From NCBI GenBank assembly GCA_026396575.1, contig JAPLWM010000020.1, forward strand, positions 14,266 to 78,265: a stretch of 64,000 bases of DNA. The letters are read 5' to 3'. Below are positions 4,068 through 53,782 of this stretch, piece by piece. The DNA comes from Candidatus Komeilibacteria bacterium (lineage in GTDB: Bacteria; Patescibacteriota; Patescibacteriia; UBA1558; UBA10009). The translations under genes and the position numbers were made by a program. Below the pieces are notes generated by a model that ran no database searches, had not been told where the DNA came from, and saw only the letters and a list, made by a program, of their open reading frames with translations. Within the stretch, counting starts at the first letter, position 1. The number at the start of each line of letters is the position of its first letter.

Positions 4068-4677
4068 TTACCGCGCTCATAGGCGGGGTGATAAATGTTA
4101 TTGTCGCCGTGCCTAAAGTAAAATCAACATTAGGCGTCATCCTTAATCCATCAGCCCAAACTTTAAGCGAACCGGCCGCTGGCGTATCCGGCAAGACAAA
4201 AATCGTGTTAATTCCATTGATTGCTCCGGTCGGAACAACATTGTCTTTGATTTTACTCAAGGTCTGATGCGGGTCATTATAATCAGTTAAATGCCCGGAC
4301 AAATCTTCAGCATTAGCCTTCGCATTTAATAATTCATCGGTTTCCCCGGATGTGTAGGCCCCTGTTTGGGCAGCTGTGACTGCGTGTGGATTATCATGAT
4401 CACCCTCATGATTGGTTAAATCCTCTGAATTAGCTTTAGCGCTTAATAATTCATCATCCTCGCCCTTAGTGTAAGCGCCAACCTGTCCGGCTGTTACCTG
4501 ATGCGGATTATCAGTGTCGCCAATATGATCGTCGGCCTTATCATTAACCTCCTTAAGTAAATTTGCTTTGGTTTGCTTTTTAGTTTCGTTGGCCGAAACA
4601 TCAACCACCACAACAAGGTCATTGTCTTCACTAGTGGTTATCGGGTCTAATTCTGAAATTTTTTTATTGGCGCTCAT
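4048..4677 (-). CDS. phage tail fiber protein with DNPH-type fiber repeats
   Basis: Two tandem repeats DNPHQVTAGQVGAYTKGEDDELLSAKANSEDL / DNPHAVTAAQTGAYTSGETDELLNAKANAEDL typical of the phage tail fibre repeat family. Confidence 0.6.
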   Translation of the reverse strand: MSANKKISELDPITTSEDNDLVVVVDVSANETKKQTKANLLKEVNDKADDHIGDTDNPHQVTAGQVGAYTKGEDDELLSAKANSEDLTNHEGDHDNPHAVTAAQTGAYTSGETDELLNAKANAEDLSGHLTDYNDPHQTLSKIKDNVVPTGAINGINTIFVLPDTPAAGSLKVWADGLRMTPNVDFTLGTATITFITPPMSAVIADYRI

Positions 4678-9940: not shown

Positions 9941-10002
9941 TTAATAGTACGGCGTGCCCGGATGATTTTGGATTTTTACGAACATATTTGTTTGGTTAAT
10001 TT

Positions 10003-19432: not shown

Positions 19433-19507
19433 TGGTGTCGGGGGCAGGAATCGAACCTGCGACCTCCTGGTTATGAGCCAAGTGAGCTGCCACTGCTCTA
19501 CCCCGAG
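19433..19507 (-). tRNA. tRNA with CAT anticodon (Met); initiator-like features
   Basis: Cloverleaf folded by hand from the reverse complement: 7 bp acceptor stem, D arm GAGC/GCUC, anticodon loop CUCAUAA, T loop TTCGATT, 3' CCA encoded. Positions 1:72 are C:C (unpaired) and 11:24 are A:U, both initiator hallmarks; only 2 of the 3 G-C pairs expected in an initiator anticodon stem are present. Confidence 0.8.
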
Positions 19508-46056: not shown

Positions 46057-46130
46057 TGGCTCGGAGACAGGGAATCGAACCCCGATTAGCAGAGCCAGAA
46101 TCTGCTGTCCTACCATTAGACGATCTCCGA
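46057..46130 (-). tRNA. tRNA-Gln (CTG anticodon)
   Basis: Hand-folded cloverleaf: acceptor UCGGAGA/UCUCCGA with U1-A72, D arm GTCT/GGAC, anticodon stem GCAGA/TCTGC, loop TTCTGGC, T loop TTCGATT, discriminator G; CCA encoded. Confidence 0.85.
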
Positions 46131-47689: not shown

Positions 47690-47737
47690 AGCAAAAGCAT
47701 TTTAACAAAATAACGGTTAAAAGGCAAATAAAAAAAA

Positions 47738-47853
47738 CTTGCCTACTATGTATCATTGCGAGCCCCGAGGGGGCGTGGCAATCCCGTTGTACTTGGTATA
47801 AACATCGGGATTGCTTCGTCGCGCGGCTCCTCGCAATGACAGCGATAGGCAAG
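47738..47853. repeat. copy 1 of a roughly 115 bp imperfect palindromic repeat element
   Basis: cattgcgag-ccccgagggggcgtg-gcaatcccg [19 nt loop] cgggattgc-ttcgtcgcgcggctc-ctcgcaatg flanked by an 8 bp outer stem cttgccta/taggcaag and by A/T runs; a near-identical core recurs at 53221-53306. Confidence 0.75.
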
Positions 47854-47859
47854 ATTTTT

Positions 47860-48396
47860 TTATTTTTTAATGATGTTTTCTATGGCCGCGTGCTGGCTTT
47901 CGGCCCCTTTGGGCACTAAAATTACGGCCTCATCGCCGATGCTGCCCTTAAAATAGGTAATGCTGGCCAAAATAACCTTGTACACCTTGTTATCGGCCAA
48001 AACGCGGTATTCGCCGGTGGCTTCATCTTTAATCACCTTGCCAACCAAACGTTCCCGCTCTACCGGGCCGATCTGCTTATAAACAAAATTGCCGGCCTCG
48101 TCGATCGACAATTTTAAAATATCGCCTTCCACCAATTTTGATTTGGAAATATAATTGGCCGGCACCGAATATTCCTTGCCGTCCGGGCCGATCATTTTTT
48201 GTCCGTCAAACACCCCTTCCACGATCCGTTCGCTGCTTAAAGCTTTCATTTCTTCCATACCCACCTTGGCCGCTTTTTTGCTGTAATCGATATCGTCCAA
48301 GGGATTCAAACTGCCGCCGGCCAAAAGCACTTTGCATTTCTGCACCTGAATTTCTATGTTATCCAAAATTTGTTTTAGCTCTTCCAAATTTTTCAT
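47860..48396 (-). CDS. hypothetical protein with two beta-rich repeats
   Basis: 178 aa; internal repeat around GDILKLSIDEAGNFVYKQIGPV / GEYRVLADNKVYKVILASI; no known motif. Confidence 0.45.
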   Translation of the reverse strand: MKNLEELKQILDNIEIQVQKCKVLLAGGSLNPLDDIDYSKKAAKVGMEEMKALSSERIVEGVFDGQKMIGPDGKEYSVPANYISKSKLVEGDILKLSIDEAGNFVYKQIGPVERERLVGKVIKDEATGEYRVLADNKVYKVILASITYFKGSIGDEAVILVPKGAESQHAAIENIIKK

Positions 48397-52263: not shown

Positions 52264-53196
52264 ATGGAAAAATCAAAACACGTCAAAGAAATAAAAACCG
52301 CCAAAGTCCGCTGGGTGCATTTAAGCAAAAACACCGTGCGGGAAATAGATTATTTAAGGCAGAACTTTAAATTCCACCCGCTGGATTTGGACGATTGCCT
52401 TTCGCCCGCCCAGCGCCCCAAGCTGGATGAATACGAAAGCTATCTGTTTTTAGTGATGACCTTCCCCTATTATGACCGCGAACAGCGGGAAATTATGGCT
52501 TCGGAAGTCAACTTTTTTATCGGGCCGGATTATTTGGTAACGGTGACCGACGGCAAGCTGCTGCCTTTATTAAAATTCTTCGAGCAATGCCAAACCAGCG
52601 ACGGCTACCGCGAAAAATACCTGGGCATTAACCCTATTTTCCTGTTTTCAGAAATCTTGGATAAATTGCAGCTTAATTTGTACCCTATTTTGGACCATAT
52701 CGGCGAAGAAATAAACCAGCTGCAAAAAGCGATTTTTTCCGGTTCGGAAAAACAGATGGTTAAGGAAATCCTGATCATCAAGCGCAACATCATCAATTTC
52801 CGCAAAATCGTCCAGGCCCATAAAAACGTGGTGCGCAAGCTGATTGCCAAAAAAGACAAATTTTTTATTCCTTCCAATTTAATGGTTTACCTGGCCAATA
52901 ATTTGGAGCAAAGCAAGGATATCTGGGACACTTTGGAAAGCCTGAAAGAAAACGTGGAAGCCCTGCACAATACCAACGAATCGCTGATTTCTTTCCGCTT
53001 AAACGACATCATTAAAATTTTAACCATTATTTCTGTAATTTTATTGCCGGCCAATTTGATTGCCGTAACTTTCGGCATGAAAACCGCAGGCATGCCTTTA
53101 GCCAACAATCCATATGGCTTTTGGCTGGCGGTGGGCCTGATGGCGGCGGTGATGCTTTCGTTGATCCTTTATTTTAAAAACAAGCGTTGGTTGTAA
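52264..53196 (+). CDS. corA: CorA-family divalent cation transporter with GMK in place of the GMN signature
   Basis: Cytoplasmic N-domain plus two C-terminal TM helices; loop sequence AVTFGMKTAGMP aligns with the CorA YGMNF motif; start set at MEKSKHVKEIK. Confidence 0.65.
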   Translation: MEKSKHVKEIKTAKVRWVHLSKNTVREIDYLRQNFKFHPLDLDDCLSPAQRPKLDEYESYLFLVMTFPYYDREQREIMASEVNFFIGPDYLVTVTDGKLLPLLKFFEQCQTSDGYREKYLGINPIFLFSEILDKLQLNLYPILDHIGEEINQLQKAIFSGSEKQMVKEILIIKRNIINFRKIVQAHKNVVRKLIAKKDKFFIPSNLMVYLANNLEQSKDIWDTLESLKENVEALHNTNESLISFRLNDIIKILTIISVILLPANLIAVTFGMKTAGMPLANNPYGFWLAVGLMAAVMLSLILYFKNKRWL

Positions 53197-53206
53197 AATA
53201 AAAAAA

Positions 53207-53321
53207 CTTTGCTCTTTTGTCATTGCGAGCCCCGAAGGGGCGTGGCAATCCCGATGTTAATGGTTATTAATAACGGGATTGCTTCGTCGCGCGGCTCCTC
53301 GCAATGACAGCGTAAGCAAAG
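53207..53321. repeat. copy 2 of the palindromic repeat element
   Basis: Core cattgcgagccccgaaggggcgtggcaatcccg...cgggattgcttcgtcgcgcggctcctcgcaatg identical to copy 1 except one base and the loop; outer stem here is ctttgct/agcaaag (different sequence, still complementary); sits between convergent corA and the pilin-like gene. Confidence 0.75.
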
Positions 53322-53326
53322 TTTTT

Positions 53327-53782
53327 TTATTCCCCGAAAACCACCATTTGCTGGCGGGTGATTTCGGAAAAATACCACAAGTTGTAAGATTGGCCGTCGC
53401 TCCAATAGCCGTACGACAGGCCGCTGCCGGACAAAGGATCCCTGGGGATCTCTTTTAAAGCCGCGGCTAAAATATCCTGGCCGTGAACGGTCTCTTTTTT
53501 CTGGACCGGATAGGTTTTATGTTCGGCTTGGTAGGTTTTAAGCTTGTCCTGCAAAACAACCATGTCGGCTTTTCTTTGTTCGTCGCGCTTTCCTTCCAAA
53601 CCCTTGGCATGGTCCAGATTGGCAAACACGCTGCTGCCAATTAGGCCTAAAATGGCTAAAGTCAGCGGAATAGCTATAATGGCAAAACCTTTTTGATTAG
53701 TCATAGTATGGCAGTTAGATAACTTGGGCATTGTACTCTTTTTTAAGATTTTGTCAACCCGCAATGCGCTTGACAAAATCAT
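53327..53782 (-). CDS. membrane-anchored pilin-like protein (no Glu+5)
   Basis: MTNQKGFAIIAIPLTLAILGLIGSSVFANL hydrophobic N-terminus resembling a prepilin but lacking E5; 151 aa. Confidence 0.35.
   Translation of the reverse strand: MILSSALRVDKILKKSTMPKLSNCHTMTNQKGFAIIAIPLTLAILGLIGSSVFANLDHAKGLEGKRDEQRKADMVVLQDKLKTYQAEHKTYPVQKKETVHGQDILAAALKEIPRDPLSGSGLSYGYWSDGQSYNLWYFSEITRQQMVVFGE

What the first reader, a model, noticed from the sequence alone, without database searches (positions are those of the whole stretch)
47738..47853. Two-copy roughly 115 bp palindromic repeat family with a conserved core and covarying outer stems
Nearly identical cores occur at 47754-47838 and 53221-53306. Each has the arms cattgcgag...gcaatcccg and cgggattgc...ctcgcaatg, with two non-complementary 15-nt GC-rich inserts (ccccgagggggcgtg and ttcgtcgcgcggctc) and an AT-rich loop that differs between the copies. 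The outermost stems differ between copies (cttgccta/taggcaag versus ctttgct/agcaaag) but stay complementary within each copy. That pattern suggests selection for structure rather than simple transposition with terminal inverted repeats and target duplications. Both copies sit at gene ends, flanked by A and T runs: one after the 178 aa gene and upstream of dnaX, the other between convergent corA and a pilin-like gene. They look like large bidirectional terminators or a REP/MITE-like structured element family, possibly protein-bound.
Basis: seen in the sequence. Interest (0 to 1): 0.6.

Follow-up and report, generated by a model that had tools for sequence, protein, structure and literature searches.

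The report
Nuclease-site hairpin pair inside terminators
The two repeats are real: each is a pair of inverted 35-base hairpin units of a known repeat class (CGTC-tagged REPs, the likely cutting sites of small Ssn single-strand DNA nucleases), sitting inside a two-way transcription terminator at gene ends in a tiny-genome Komeilibacteria bacterium.

Summary
There are two copies, at 47726-47868 and 53195-53331, and only these two in the window. The arms are 68/70 identical, and each copy folds into a very stable long hairpin (z -8.5 to -11).

Each copy has two layers. The core is a head-to-head heterodimer of two 35-nt units, (C/T)GTC-ATTGC-GA-[5-bp stem + triloop]-GNR-GCAAT-CCCG. The shell is an A-run, a 7-8 bp outer stem and a T-run that starts at the stop codon of the adjoining gene.

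The units match the head, the A/T stem start, the tail, the dimer type and the gene-end position of the CGTC-tagged REPs (Di Nocera 2013). These are now called Ssn-related motifs (Chenal 2025). They do not match the published stem and loop lengths or the SRM search pattern.

All nine small Ssn-like GIY-YIG gene loci I fetched are flanked by such hairpins, six of them by this exact unit family. RAYT-like transposase genes are not flanked by them.

Relatives carry plain bidirectional terminators at the same two sites. Thirty-six related copies never lie between divergent genes. Outer stems vary with compensating changes, and the spacers next to them are unconserved.

Verdict: a new variant of a known repeat class. 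The terminator role and the nuclease partner are inferred, not shown.

The parts
47726..47737 (.). Copy A: A-run (AAATAAAAAAAA). It becomes the U-run for transcripts read on the + strand's complement. Its left edge overlaps the -35 of the dnaX promoter-like site.
   Evidence: promoter-like TTGCCT-17-TAAAAT at 47727..47699 on the - strand
47738..47745 (.). Copy A: outer stem, left arm CTTGCCTA
   Evidence: Pairs with 47846-47853
47752..47786 (+). Copy A unit 1 ('type 2'): ATC-ATTGC-GA-GCCCC-GAG-GGGGC-GTG-GCAAT-CCCG. The head is degenerate (ATC in place of GTC).
   Evidence: the inner 5-bp stem covaries across 38 distinct units
47787..47805 (.). Copy A: spacer/apical loop TTGTACTTGGTATAAACAT, conserved (83%) among Komeilibacteria-type copies and found in either orientation
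47806..47840 (-). Copy A unit 2 ('type 1'), read on the - strand: GTC-ATTGC-GA-GGAGC-CGC-GCGAC-GAA-GCAAT-CCCG. The inner stem has tandem G.A pairs.
47846..47853 (.). Copy A: outer stem, right arm TAGGCAAG
47855..47868 (.). Copy A: T-run. It overlaps the stop codon (47860-47862, - strand) of the 178-aa gene.
53195..53206 (.). Copy B: A-run. It starts inside the corA stop codon (53194-53196).
53207..53213 (.). Copy B: outer stem, left arm CTTTGCT
   Evidence: I13: a 17-nt perfect inverted repeat including the A/T runs
53219..53253 (+). Copy B unit 1 ('type 2'): GTC-ATTGC-GA-GCCCC-GAA-GGGGC-GTG-GCAAT-CCCG
53254..53273 (.). Copy B: spacer/apical loop ATGTTAATGGTTATTAATAA, divergent from copy A and itself a small hairpin
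53274..53308 (-). Copy B unit 2 ('type 1'), identical to unit 2 of copy A
53315..53321 (.). Copy B: outer stem, right arm AGCAAAG
53322..53331 (.). Copy B: T-run. It overlaps the stop codon (53327-53329, - strand) of the 151-aa gene.

Best explanation
Each copy is a two-layer element.

Inner layer (shown by sequence comparison): a head-to-head heterodimer of two ~35-nt hairpin units of the CGTC-tagged REP class, which the 2025 Ssn paper calls Ssn-related motifs. Each unit has an unpaired (C/T)GTC head and a 5-bp stem ATTGC/GCAAT. Then comes a GA / GNR internal loop, a second 5-bp stem that is free to vary but stays paired or carries tandem G.A, and a triloop. A C follows directly after the palindrome.

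Inferred partner: by analogy with Neisseria SsnA and its NTS repeat, the units are bound and cut, as single-stranded DNA and on one strand only, by a small GIY-YIG Ssn-type nuclease encoded elsewhere in the genome. Because the two units are inverted, each DNA strand presents exactly one unit in the cuttable sense. Inferred consequences are limits on recombination of incoming single strands and/or spread and homogenisation of the repeat within a genome.

Outer layer (position shown, activity inferred): an A-run, a 7-8 bp stem and a T-run enclose the dimer and start at the stop codon. On either strand the transcript ends in a hairpin followed by U's, so the whole element serves as the bidirectional intrinsic terminator of the adjoining genes.
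For: **Family and unit structure**
- The same unit occurs in viral contigs and in genomes of Patescibacteria, Acetobacteraceae and Firmicutes. Twenty-six metagenome loci carry it.
- Across 38 distinct units the inner stem keeps pairing through double changes: 27 cells against 11.4+-2.2 in shuffles, 0/500.
- Longer inserts are themselves hairpin extensions of that stem.

**Match to the described class**
- The head, the A/T stem start, the 3-nt tail, the HH heterodimer with a conserved spacer, the position under 30 nt from 3' ends, and the lack of a flanking transposase all match PMC3733652.
- The NTS is CGTCATTCCCGCG..CGCGGGAATCYRG. The GTC is needed for cutting and the C after the palindrome for binding.

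**Partner nuclease**
- All 9 Ssn-like GIY-YIG loci fetched are flanked by CGTC-type hairpins. Six carry this exact unit family: L049, L070, L079, L089, L090, L094.
- A profile of the window-type cores hits the L070 and L079 flanking dimers over their full length.
- The proteins are 95-97 aa with a single domain. Their Y5/Y16/E63 spacing equals SsnA Y6/Y17/E64.
- L049 carries both the nuclease gene and a terminator-nested copy.

**Dynamics**
- Three unit-number alleles sit upstream of an identical nuclease protein.
- Copies within a genome share private variants.
- L034 and L055 have near-identical cores with unrelated outer stems.

**Terminator layer**
- Relatives have plain A-run/stem/T-run terminators at both sites, with the T-run abutting the same dnaX promoter.
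- Context of related copies: 18 codirectional, 11 convergent, 0 divergent. The core lies 18-29 nt from the upstream stop codon.
- All 27 copies have a perfect outer helix, mean 12.9 bp against 4.7 in shuffled flanks.
- Identity is 99% in stem I, 37-40% in the adjoining spacers and 79% in the outer arms.
Against: - No Ssn-like gene lies in the 64-kb window, and the rest of the source genome could not be read.
- The units do not match the published SRM search pattern or the 8-9 bp stem / 4-5 nt loop given for CGTC REPs.
- Assignment of the flanked nucleases to cd10448 could not be run. NCBIfam gave no hit for the L049-type protein.
- No cleavage, binding or transcript-end data exist for any member of this subfamily.
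- No empty site with the same outer stem was found, so mobility is inferred, not seen.
- The outer stems are short and only 3-4 G-C pairs strong.
- Compensated changes in a palindrome can also arise by template switching between arms, without selection.
Confidence: 0.68

Rival explanations
1. It is only an unusually large bidirectional intrinsic terminator family. The whole hairpin is selected at the RNA level, copies arise by duplication, and no dedicated protein partner or DNA-level role exists.
For: Position at stop codons, A/T runs, and plain terminators at the same sites in relatives. Outer stems show compensated changes. A few G.T wobbles occur on one strand (L016, L036).
Against: The 85-nt core is 99-100% conserved while neighbouring proteins are only ~70% identical. 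The same units occur without any outer stem or T-run in Acetobacteraceae, Firmicutes and phage contigs. They flank Ssn-like nuclease genes. The core lies in both orientations relative to genes. A terminator has no need for a sequence-conserved insert.
Confidence: 0.1
2. It is a REPIN: a non-autonomous element made of two inverted REPs and mobilised by a RAYT (Y1 HUH transposase).
For: Inverted doublet with a spacer forming a long hairpin. RAYT-like Y1_Tnp genes exist in related genomes: L044 has PF01797 at 34.6 bits. Homologues P0167 and P0204 come from the same sequencing samples as the window organism.
Against: None of the RAYT-like genes examined (L044, L065, L067/68, L069) is flanked by these units. 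The head is CGTC/TGTC, not GTAG. The 2013 survey found no transposase linked to CGTC repeats. The NCBIfam REP-transposase model scores 53.8, below its cut-off of 80. One RAYT-like locus in about 570 kb is what chance would give.
Confidence: 0.1
3. It is a structured non-coding RNA (sRNA or 3'-UTR regulatory element) whose function lies in the transcript.
For: Strong predicted folds on both strands, covariation, location in 3' UTRs.
Against: No Rfam match even at E<=10. The element is quasi-symmetric and occurs in both orientations at one site. The tandem G.A arrangement is strand-specific to a different arm on each strand. The units also occur in tandem and as singles next to nuclease genes.
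Confidence: 0.05
4. It is a MITE derived from a DDE-type insertion sequence, with the arms as terminal inverted repeats bound as double-stranded DNA.
For: Inverted arms, small size, multicopy. An IS1595-type transposase sits in a relative's syntenic region (L056).
Against: No target-site duplication in any of the 27 copies inspected. Each arm has internal covarying hairpins, which a double-stranded DNA binding site does not need. No IS with these ends was seen in 720 kb.
Confidence: 0.03

Closest known systems
CGTC-tagged REPs (Di Nocera, De Gregorio & Rocco 2013, BMC Genomics 14:522; includes Neisseria dRS3 and Rickettsia RPE-4/RPE-6)
   Same: Unpaired CGTC/TGTC head. The stem starts with A then T. 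A 3-nt tail (CCC here, CCA in the Acetobacteraceae and phage copies). Mostly head-to-head dimers with the tags outside. Heterodimers with a conserved spacer. Located between convergent or codirectional genes close to 3' ends. No flanking transposase.
   Different: The published families have one 8-9 bp stem and a 4-5 nt loop. Here the stem is bipartite (5 bp, a 2x3 internal loop, then 5 bp that often holds tandem G.A) with a triloop, which makes the unit about 10 nt longer. The host phylum (Patescibacteria) was not surveyed. The survey reported none in Acetobacteraceae, where one search finds perfect homodimers. Nesting inside a terminator hairpin is not described.
NTS / Ssn-related motifs and the Ssn GIY-YIG single-strand nucleases (Chenal et al. 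2025, Nat Commun 16:2388)
   Same: HGTCWY head, hairpin, C directly after the palindrome, RNCYNB-like tail (ATCCCG). The motif-gene-motif arrangement around 95-97 aa single-domain GIY-YIG genes was seen in 9 of 9 loci here. That paper shows the loop to be dispensable and extendable, which fits the variable inner stem.
   Different: The literal SRM pattern is not matched (against the unit sequence). No nuclease gene lies in this window. Specificity and cleavage of the CPR proteins are untested. The Neisseria role (curbing transformation by NTS-bearing DNA) is only an analogy here.
REPIN-RAYT systems (Bertels & Rainey 2011)
   Same: Two inverted REP units with a short spacer folding into one long hairpin. 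Many copies per genome, with within-genome sequence clusters. Extragenic position.
   Different: The head is CGTC, not GTAG. RAYT-like genes in these genomes are not flanked by the units.
Bidirectional Rho-independent terminators, including inverted DUS pairs in Neisseria (my own knowledge)
   Same: A-run, stem and T-run directly after stop codons between convergent or codirectional genes. Canonical versions sit at the same two sites in relatives.
   Different: The 'loop' is about 100 nt holding a conserved structured insert. The outer stems are short (7-8 bp in the window).

Membership tests
CGTC-tagged REP superfamily (PMC3733652) | Unpaired terminal tag CGTC (or TGTC/CCTC) at one end of the palindrome | tested here: met
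   Window units: TGTC in three, TATC in one. In the 27 related copies listed (my reading, not a script tally), the head of the first unit reads CGTC in 16, TGTC in 7, GGTC in 3 and TATC in 1.
CGTC-tagged REP superfamily (PMC3733652) | Stem begins with complementary A and T in first and second position | tested here: met
   ATTGC...GCAAT in all units. Sister subfamilies have ATTTC/GAAAT, ATCCC/GGGAT, ATCGC/GCGAT, ATGCC/GGCAT.
CGTC-tagged REP superfamily (PMC3733652) | Stem 8-9 bp and loop 4-5 nt (Table 1 of the paper) | tested here: not met
   The stem is bipartite: 5 bp, a GA/GNR internal loop, then 5 bp, with a 3-nt loop.
CGTC-tagged REP superfamily (PMC3733652) | Short unpaired 3-nt tail, mostly CCA | tested here: met
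   CCC in the CPR copies; CCA in L006, L009, L010.
CGTC-tagged REP superfamily (PMC3733652) | Mostly HH dimers (tags outside), often heterodimers, with a conserved spacer | tested here: met
   Both window copies and all 58 full elements found are tag-outside dimers. Spacer identity is 83%.
CGTC-tagged REP superfamily (PMC3733652) | Lies between convergent or unidirectional ORFs, close to 3' ends | tested here: met
   18 codirectional, 11 convergent, 0 divergent; 18-29 nt from the stop codon.
Ssn-related motif (SRM) / Ssn nuclease system (PMC11893778) | Matches the published degenerate pattern HGTCWYN(0-2)YYVSBRHN(0-5)WNVSBRGN(0-2)RNCYNB | tested here: not met
   The head HGTCWY and the tail RNCYNB fit. 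The middle does not, because TGCGAG breaks YYVSBRH in every register and the unit is too long. I checked this by hand against the pattern quoted.
Ssn-related motif (SRM) / Ssn nuclease system (PMC11893778) | GTC upstream of the palindrome and a C immediately after it (cleavage and binding determinants in SsnA) | tested here: met
   GTC-ATTGC...GCAAT-C in 3 of 4 window units (ATC in the fourth) and in all related units.
Ssn-related motif (SRM) / Ssn nuclease system (PMC11893778) | Motifs flank the gene of a small single-domain GIY-YIG (cd10448) nuclease | tested here: met
   Met in related loci: L049, L070-78, L079-88, L089, L090 and L094-103 carry this unit family; L091-93 carry sister families. 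Not met inside the window, which has no such gene.
Ssn-related motif (SRM) / Ssn nuclease system (PMC11893778) | The flanked protein belongs to CDD family cd10448 | not testable with these tools
   No CDD search is available. Consistent facts: PF01541 only, 95-97 aa, Y/Y/E spacing as in SsnA. The same profile recovers L091, whose flanks are canonical NTS-like repeats.
Ssn-related motif (SRM) / Ssn nuclease system (PMC11893778) | Strand-specific cleavage of single-stranded DNA only | not testable with these tools
   Needs purified protein and oligonucleotides.
REPIN-RAYT | The RAYT gene is flanked by the REP units it mobilises | tested here: not met
   L044, L065, L067/68 and L069 RAYT-like genes have no CATTGCGAG units beside them.
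REPIN-RAYT | GTAG-type head on the REP | tested here: not met
   The head is CGTC/TGTC.
Rho-independent bidirectional terminator | Stem directly followed by a T-run and preceded by an A-run, just after a stop codon | tested here: met
   canonical terminators at the same sites in L056, L061, L063.
Rho-independent bidirectional terminator | Short loop (about 3-8 nt) | tested here: not met
   The outer stem encloses about 100 nt. The consensus scan with loop <=8 does not call either element.
Rho-independent bidirectional terminator | Transcripts end at the T-run | not testable with these tools
   No transcript data.
DDE-type MITE | Target-site duplication flanking terminal inverted repeats | tested here: not met
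   No direct repeats flank the core or the outer stem in the 27 copies.

The most novel reading that the evidence does not exclude
The dimers are still-mobile elements that an Ssn-type nuclease cuts at the two outward GTC heads. They settle specifically at the apex of terminator hairpins, giving a hairpin within a hairpin. Small CPR genomes would thus carry 'portable' terminator inserts. The same sites would mark the chromosome for cleavage of incoming single-stranded DNA taken up through the type IV pilus machinery. One Ssn-like gene sits between pilC and a pilin gene.
Probability: 0.2. Interest if true: 0.75.

Novelty: new variant of a known kind. Interest (0 to 1): 0.45.

Why it matters
How CGTC-tagged repeats spread has been open since 2013, and the Ssn nucleases were described only in 2025, mainly in Proteobacteria. 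This finding adds three things.

- A distinct, longer unit architecture that the published search pattern misses, so current censuses probably undercount the class.
- The class in Patescibacteria and phage contigs, tightly linked to Ssn-like genes.
- A setting where the repeat is built into the terminators of a streamlined genome, with three zones of different constraint side by side: sequence-frozen core, free spacers, structure-kept outer stem.

That makes two questions directly testable with a few oligonucleotides and one small protein. Do these nucleases cut this unit? Does the nested hairpin terminate transcription?

Tried and rejected
- **Rfam:** nothing at gathering scores on the whole window or at E<=10 on the locus.
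- **Literature search by the sequence itself:** only chance primer matches.
- **BLAST of the element:** three half-unit hits in plasmids, none in phage records.
- **RAYT hypothesis:** I found a Y1 gene near one copy and fetched four homologous loci. None is flanked by the units, so I rejected RAYT as the partner.
- **Empty sites:**
  - Orthologous sites in four relatives carry plain terminators, but with unrelated stems.
  - No plain GGCCTTGCC-stem hairpin with A/T runs occurs in the 720 kb held.
  - All 15 contigs carrying the neighbouring 151-aa protein end inside the element.
  - So insertion was not caught in the act.
- **Target-site duplications:** an apparent ACCG/ACGG direct repeat in a few copies is explained by the GT...AC palindrome ends and shared descent.
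- **Column-wise covariation count on outer stems:** abandoned, because anchoring on the innermost pair puts copies out of register. I used self versus non-self helix lengths instead.
- **Simple terminator/promoter scan:** not enriched over shuffles, and blind to loops over 8 nt.
- **Loose unit definition (GTC + 5-bp complement + C):** no better than chance in the window, 4 against 3.9, so only the specific family was counted.
- **C-terminal repeat-encoded peptides in 120 Ssn-like proteins:** only the query's own cluster has one.

Full report
**1. The observation**

The window holds two copies of a quasi-palindromic element.
- The pattern CATTGCGAG-N15-GCAATCC occurs four times, two per copy on opposite strands, where shuffles give 0.03.
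- The copies align at 88%. The two arms are 68/70 identical and the central loop differs.
- The outer stems are CTTGCCTA/TAGGCAAG and CTTTGCT/AGCAAAG. They differ between copies, pair within each copy, and are bracketed by A and T runs.
- Both strands fold into one long hairpin, as RNA or as DNA. Energies are 7.8 to 11.2 standard deviations below shuffles.
- A profile built from 27 related cores finds only these two copies in the 64 kb.
- Copy A lies between the stop codon of a 178-aa gene and the promoter-like site of dnaX. Copy B lies between the stop codons of convergent corA and a 151-aa gene.
- The 'pilin-like' label for the 151-aa gene is not confirmed.

**2. It is a large family, not a local duplication**

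- Public assemblies of the same organism break exactly inside the element. All five contigs that carry the 178-aa gene end inside copy A, and the one reaching corA also starts inside copy B. All 15 contigs with the 151-aa gene end inside copy B.
- The source is a MAG of Candidatus Komeilibacteria.
- A scan of species-representative genomes with a relaxed dimer pattern found 18 loci. Seven are in one other Komeilibacteria MAG. The rest are in other Patescibacteria, Acetobacteraceae, an unclassified alphaproteobacterium and two Firmicutes.
- Viral contigs gave six loci. A subfamily-specific pattern gave 26 metagenome loci.

**3. Anatomy of the unit**

Each arm is a hairpin in its own right:
- a head (C/T)GTC;
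- stem P1, ATTGC/GCAAT;
- an internal loop, GA on the 5' side and GNR on the 3' side;
- a second 5-bp stem P2, and a triloop;
- then CC(C/A).

P2 comes in several versions. Fully paired forms are GCCCC/GGGGC, GGCCC/GGGCC, GGCCG/CGGCC, GGCAC/GTGCC and GCCCT/AGGGC. Other forms carry tandem G.A pairs, such as GGAGC/GCGAC and GGGAG/CGACC.

On 38 distinct units, three of the five P2 pairs change on both sides: 27 such cells against 11.4+-2.2 in shuffles, with 0 of 500 shuffles as high. Longer inserts simply extend P2 as a further hairpin (L025, L039, L047, L049).

Sister subfamilies keep the head and tail but swap P1 in a compensated way: ATTTC/GAAAT, ATCCC/GGGAT, ATCGC/GCGAT, ATGCC/GGCAT, ACTTC/GAAGT.

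In the window, one arm is a paired-P2 unit and the other a G.A unit. This is why the two 15-nt 'inserts' are not complementary. In Acetobacteraceae both arms are the same and the dimer is a perfect palindrome.

**4. What is known about such units**

The features are those of the CGTC-tagged REPs of Di Nocera et al. 2013:
- an unpaired CGTC/TGTC tag;
- a stem that starts with A then T;
- a 3-nt tail, mostly CCA;
- mostly head-to-head dimers with the tags outside, frequently heterodimers with conserved spacers;
- a place between convergent or unidirectional genes near 3' ends;
- no linked transposase.

That class includes Neisseria dRS3. In 2025 Chenal et al. showed that the longer dRS3-containing repeat NTS is CGTCATTCCCGCG..CGCGGGAATCYRG. 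It is bound and cut, only as single-stranded DNA and only on one strand, by SsnA, a 94-aa single-domain GIY-YIG protein. The GTC upstream matters for cutting and the C after the palindrome for binding, while the loop is dispensable and extendable. Homologous genes across bacteria are flanked by 'Ssn-related motifs'.

The present unit shares the head, the C after the palindrome and the tail. It fails the published stem and loop lengths and the literal SRM pattern because of its bipartite, longer stem.

**5. Testing the two candidate partners**

*RAYT.* A Y1_Tnp gene lies 1.1 kb from one copy (L044), and homologues come from the same samples as the window organism. None of four such loci is flanked by the units.

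*Ssn.* I started from a small GIY-YIG gene whose 3' end runs into a dimer (L049) and fetched homologues.
- In Patescibacteria (L070-78) a dimer sits upstream and an inverted unit directly follows the stop codon.
- In WWE3 (L079-88) the same heterodimer flanks both sides.
- In Parcubacteria (L094-103) a unit abuts the ATG and an inverted one overlaps the stop codon. Contigs encoding the identical protein carry one, two or three units upstream.
- Five viral-contig homologues are all flanked as well. Two carry this family, one carries canonical NTS-like repeats and two carry a further subfamily.

In total, nine of nine loci have CGTC-type hairpins and six of nine have this unit family. The window-type core profile aligns over its full length to the L070 and L079 flanking dimers. 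The proteins are 95-97 aa with only PF01541, and their tyrosine/tyrosine/glutamate spacing is that of SsnA. CDD membership could not be run. The window itself has no such gene.

**6. The outer layer**

Gene order around both copies is conserved in four relatives that are all about 70% identical in protein to the window and to each other.
- Downstream of the 178-aa gene, the window and L059 carry the element, with the core in opposite orientation.
- L056, L061 and L063 instead carry ordinary A-run/stem/T-run terminators with unrelated stems. The T-run abuts the same dnaX promoter.
- Downstream of corA the three relatives again have plain bidirectional terminators.

Among 36 Komeilibacteria-type copies, 18 lie between codirectional genes, 11 between convergent genes and none between divergent genes. 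The core is typically 18-29 nt from the upstream stop codon.

Every one of 27 copies has a perfect outer helix of 7-21 bp. The mean is 12.9 bp, against 4.7 for shuffled flanks (maximum 9) and 7.7 for flanks of different copies.

Most outer stems are versions of GGCCTTGCC/GGCAAGGCC with compensated changes: GGCCGTGC/GCACGGCC, GACCTGGCC/GGCCAGGTC, GGTTTTGCC/GGCAAAACC, AGCCTTGCC/GGCAAGGCT, and the two window versions. A few are unrelated sequences that still pair (L030, L048, L055, L040). L034 and L055 have nearly the same core but unrelated outer stems.

No plain hairpin terminator with the GGCCTTGCC stem and A/T runs occurs without a core in the 720 kb held.

Pairwise identity is 99-100% in the core stems, 90% in the inserts and 83% in the spacer loop. 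It falls to 37-40% in the 6 nt just outside the GTC heads and rises to 79% in the outer arms. The sequence-frozen block therefore ends exactly at the heads. The junctions are free, and the outer stem is kept as a structure.

**7. How it most likely works**

*Shown:*
- the unit and dimer architecture;
- its class;
- its tight linkage to Ssn-like genes elsewhere;
- its place at terminator positions;
- the pattern of constraint.

*Inferred:*
- An Ssn-type nuclease of the host recognises each unit as single-stranded DNA. Each strand offers one cuttable unit because the units are inverted.
- The outer stem plus U-run ends transcription in both directions, with the nested dimer folding first.
- Copies are spread or homogenised within genomes. 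Private variants are shared by the copies of one genome: CCGCGCG in both window copies, GCGTAGC in six JAUYIT01 copies, GCGCTAGC in L034 and L055. Unit number also varies next to an identical nuclease gene.

*Open:* whether the core inserts into existing terminator loops or travels together with its outer stem.

**8. Verdict**

The element is real and multicopy. It is best filed as a new variant of the CGTC-tagged REP / Ssn-related-motif class, nested in bidirectional terminators of a Patescibacteria genome. It is not a new kind of system.

It extends a recently described nuclease-repeat pairing to a new phylum and a new unit architecture. It also offers clean experiments.

Interest is moderate.

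Noticed in passing
L044 5318-5348; L065 about 4235-4285; L067 about 150-190; L069 about 9965-10000: Every RAYT-like Y1_Tnp gene fetched has a conserved hairpin right before its start codon, AACAGGGTCAT...CCCTGTTTTT-ATG, downstream of a TTGACA-type promoter. It starts with GTCAT like the repeat units and may be a regulatory or recognition site.
   Followed up: partly
L094-L103 (for example L094 182-2397): An Ssn-like GIY-YIG gene sits between pilC (T2SSF) and a prepilin (N_methyl) gene in a Parcubacteria type IV pilus cluster. Contigs encoding the identical protein carry 1, 2 or 3 repeat units upstream.
   Followed up: partly
L056 10590-10680: At the site where the window has copy A, a relative has a plain terminator followed by a different palindromic dimer. 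Its units have the same GTCAT head and CCCG tail but other first stems (ATTTC/GAAAT and ATCCC/GGGAT).
   Followed up: partly
L061 12150-12800; L030 9200-9700: A second subfamily of small GIY-YIG genes lies next to tRNA genes. In L061 the 5' part of the tRNA is duplicated upstream with a GC-rich hairpin inserted in the D-loop region, as if the gene had inserted into the tRNA.
   Followed up: no
L044 2362 and 5631; L052 about 680-720: Another palindromic repeat (GGAGCCTTGATTAATCAAGGCTCC) occurs twice in L044: once as a terminator-like hairpin and once inside the RAYT-like reading frame. The syntenic RAYT-like gene in L052 is split at the same place by a different hairpin.
   Followed up: no
L069 6488-6830, 12327-12373, 13474-13578: A Komeilibacteria contig with a long RAYT-like gene carries six copies of yet another CGTC-headed unit, CGTCACTTCGACCGA...GGAGAAGTCT.
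   Followed up: no
L012, L015, L017, L020, L026, L029: MAGs labelled Acetobacteraceae carry perfect homodimers of the unit, although the 2013 survey reported CGTC repeats missing from that family.
   Followed up: no
L028 4082-4163: In one copy only the central spacer is inverted relative to the two arms. At the window/L059 orthologous site the whole core is inverted. This suggests flipping by recombination between the inverted arms.
   Followed up: partly
L010 1037-2791 and 11653-11745; L011 5892-6781; L090 1240-2100: Phage-like contigs carry several of these dimers in intergenic spots, for example after a terminase large-subunit-like gene in L011. One (L090) also carries an Ssn-like gene.
   Followed up: partly
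window 19436-19507 and 46060-46130: Two tRNA genes on the - strand. The second lies just downstream of dnaX.
   Followed up: no
L044 6100-6500 and L052 1-420: A conserved non-coding stretch downstream of the RAYT-like gene looks like a structured RNA gene. It was not identified.
   Followed up: no
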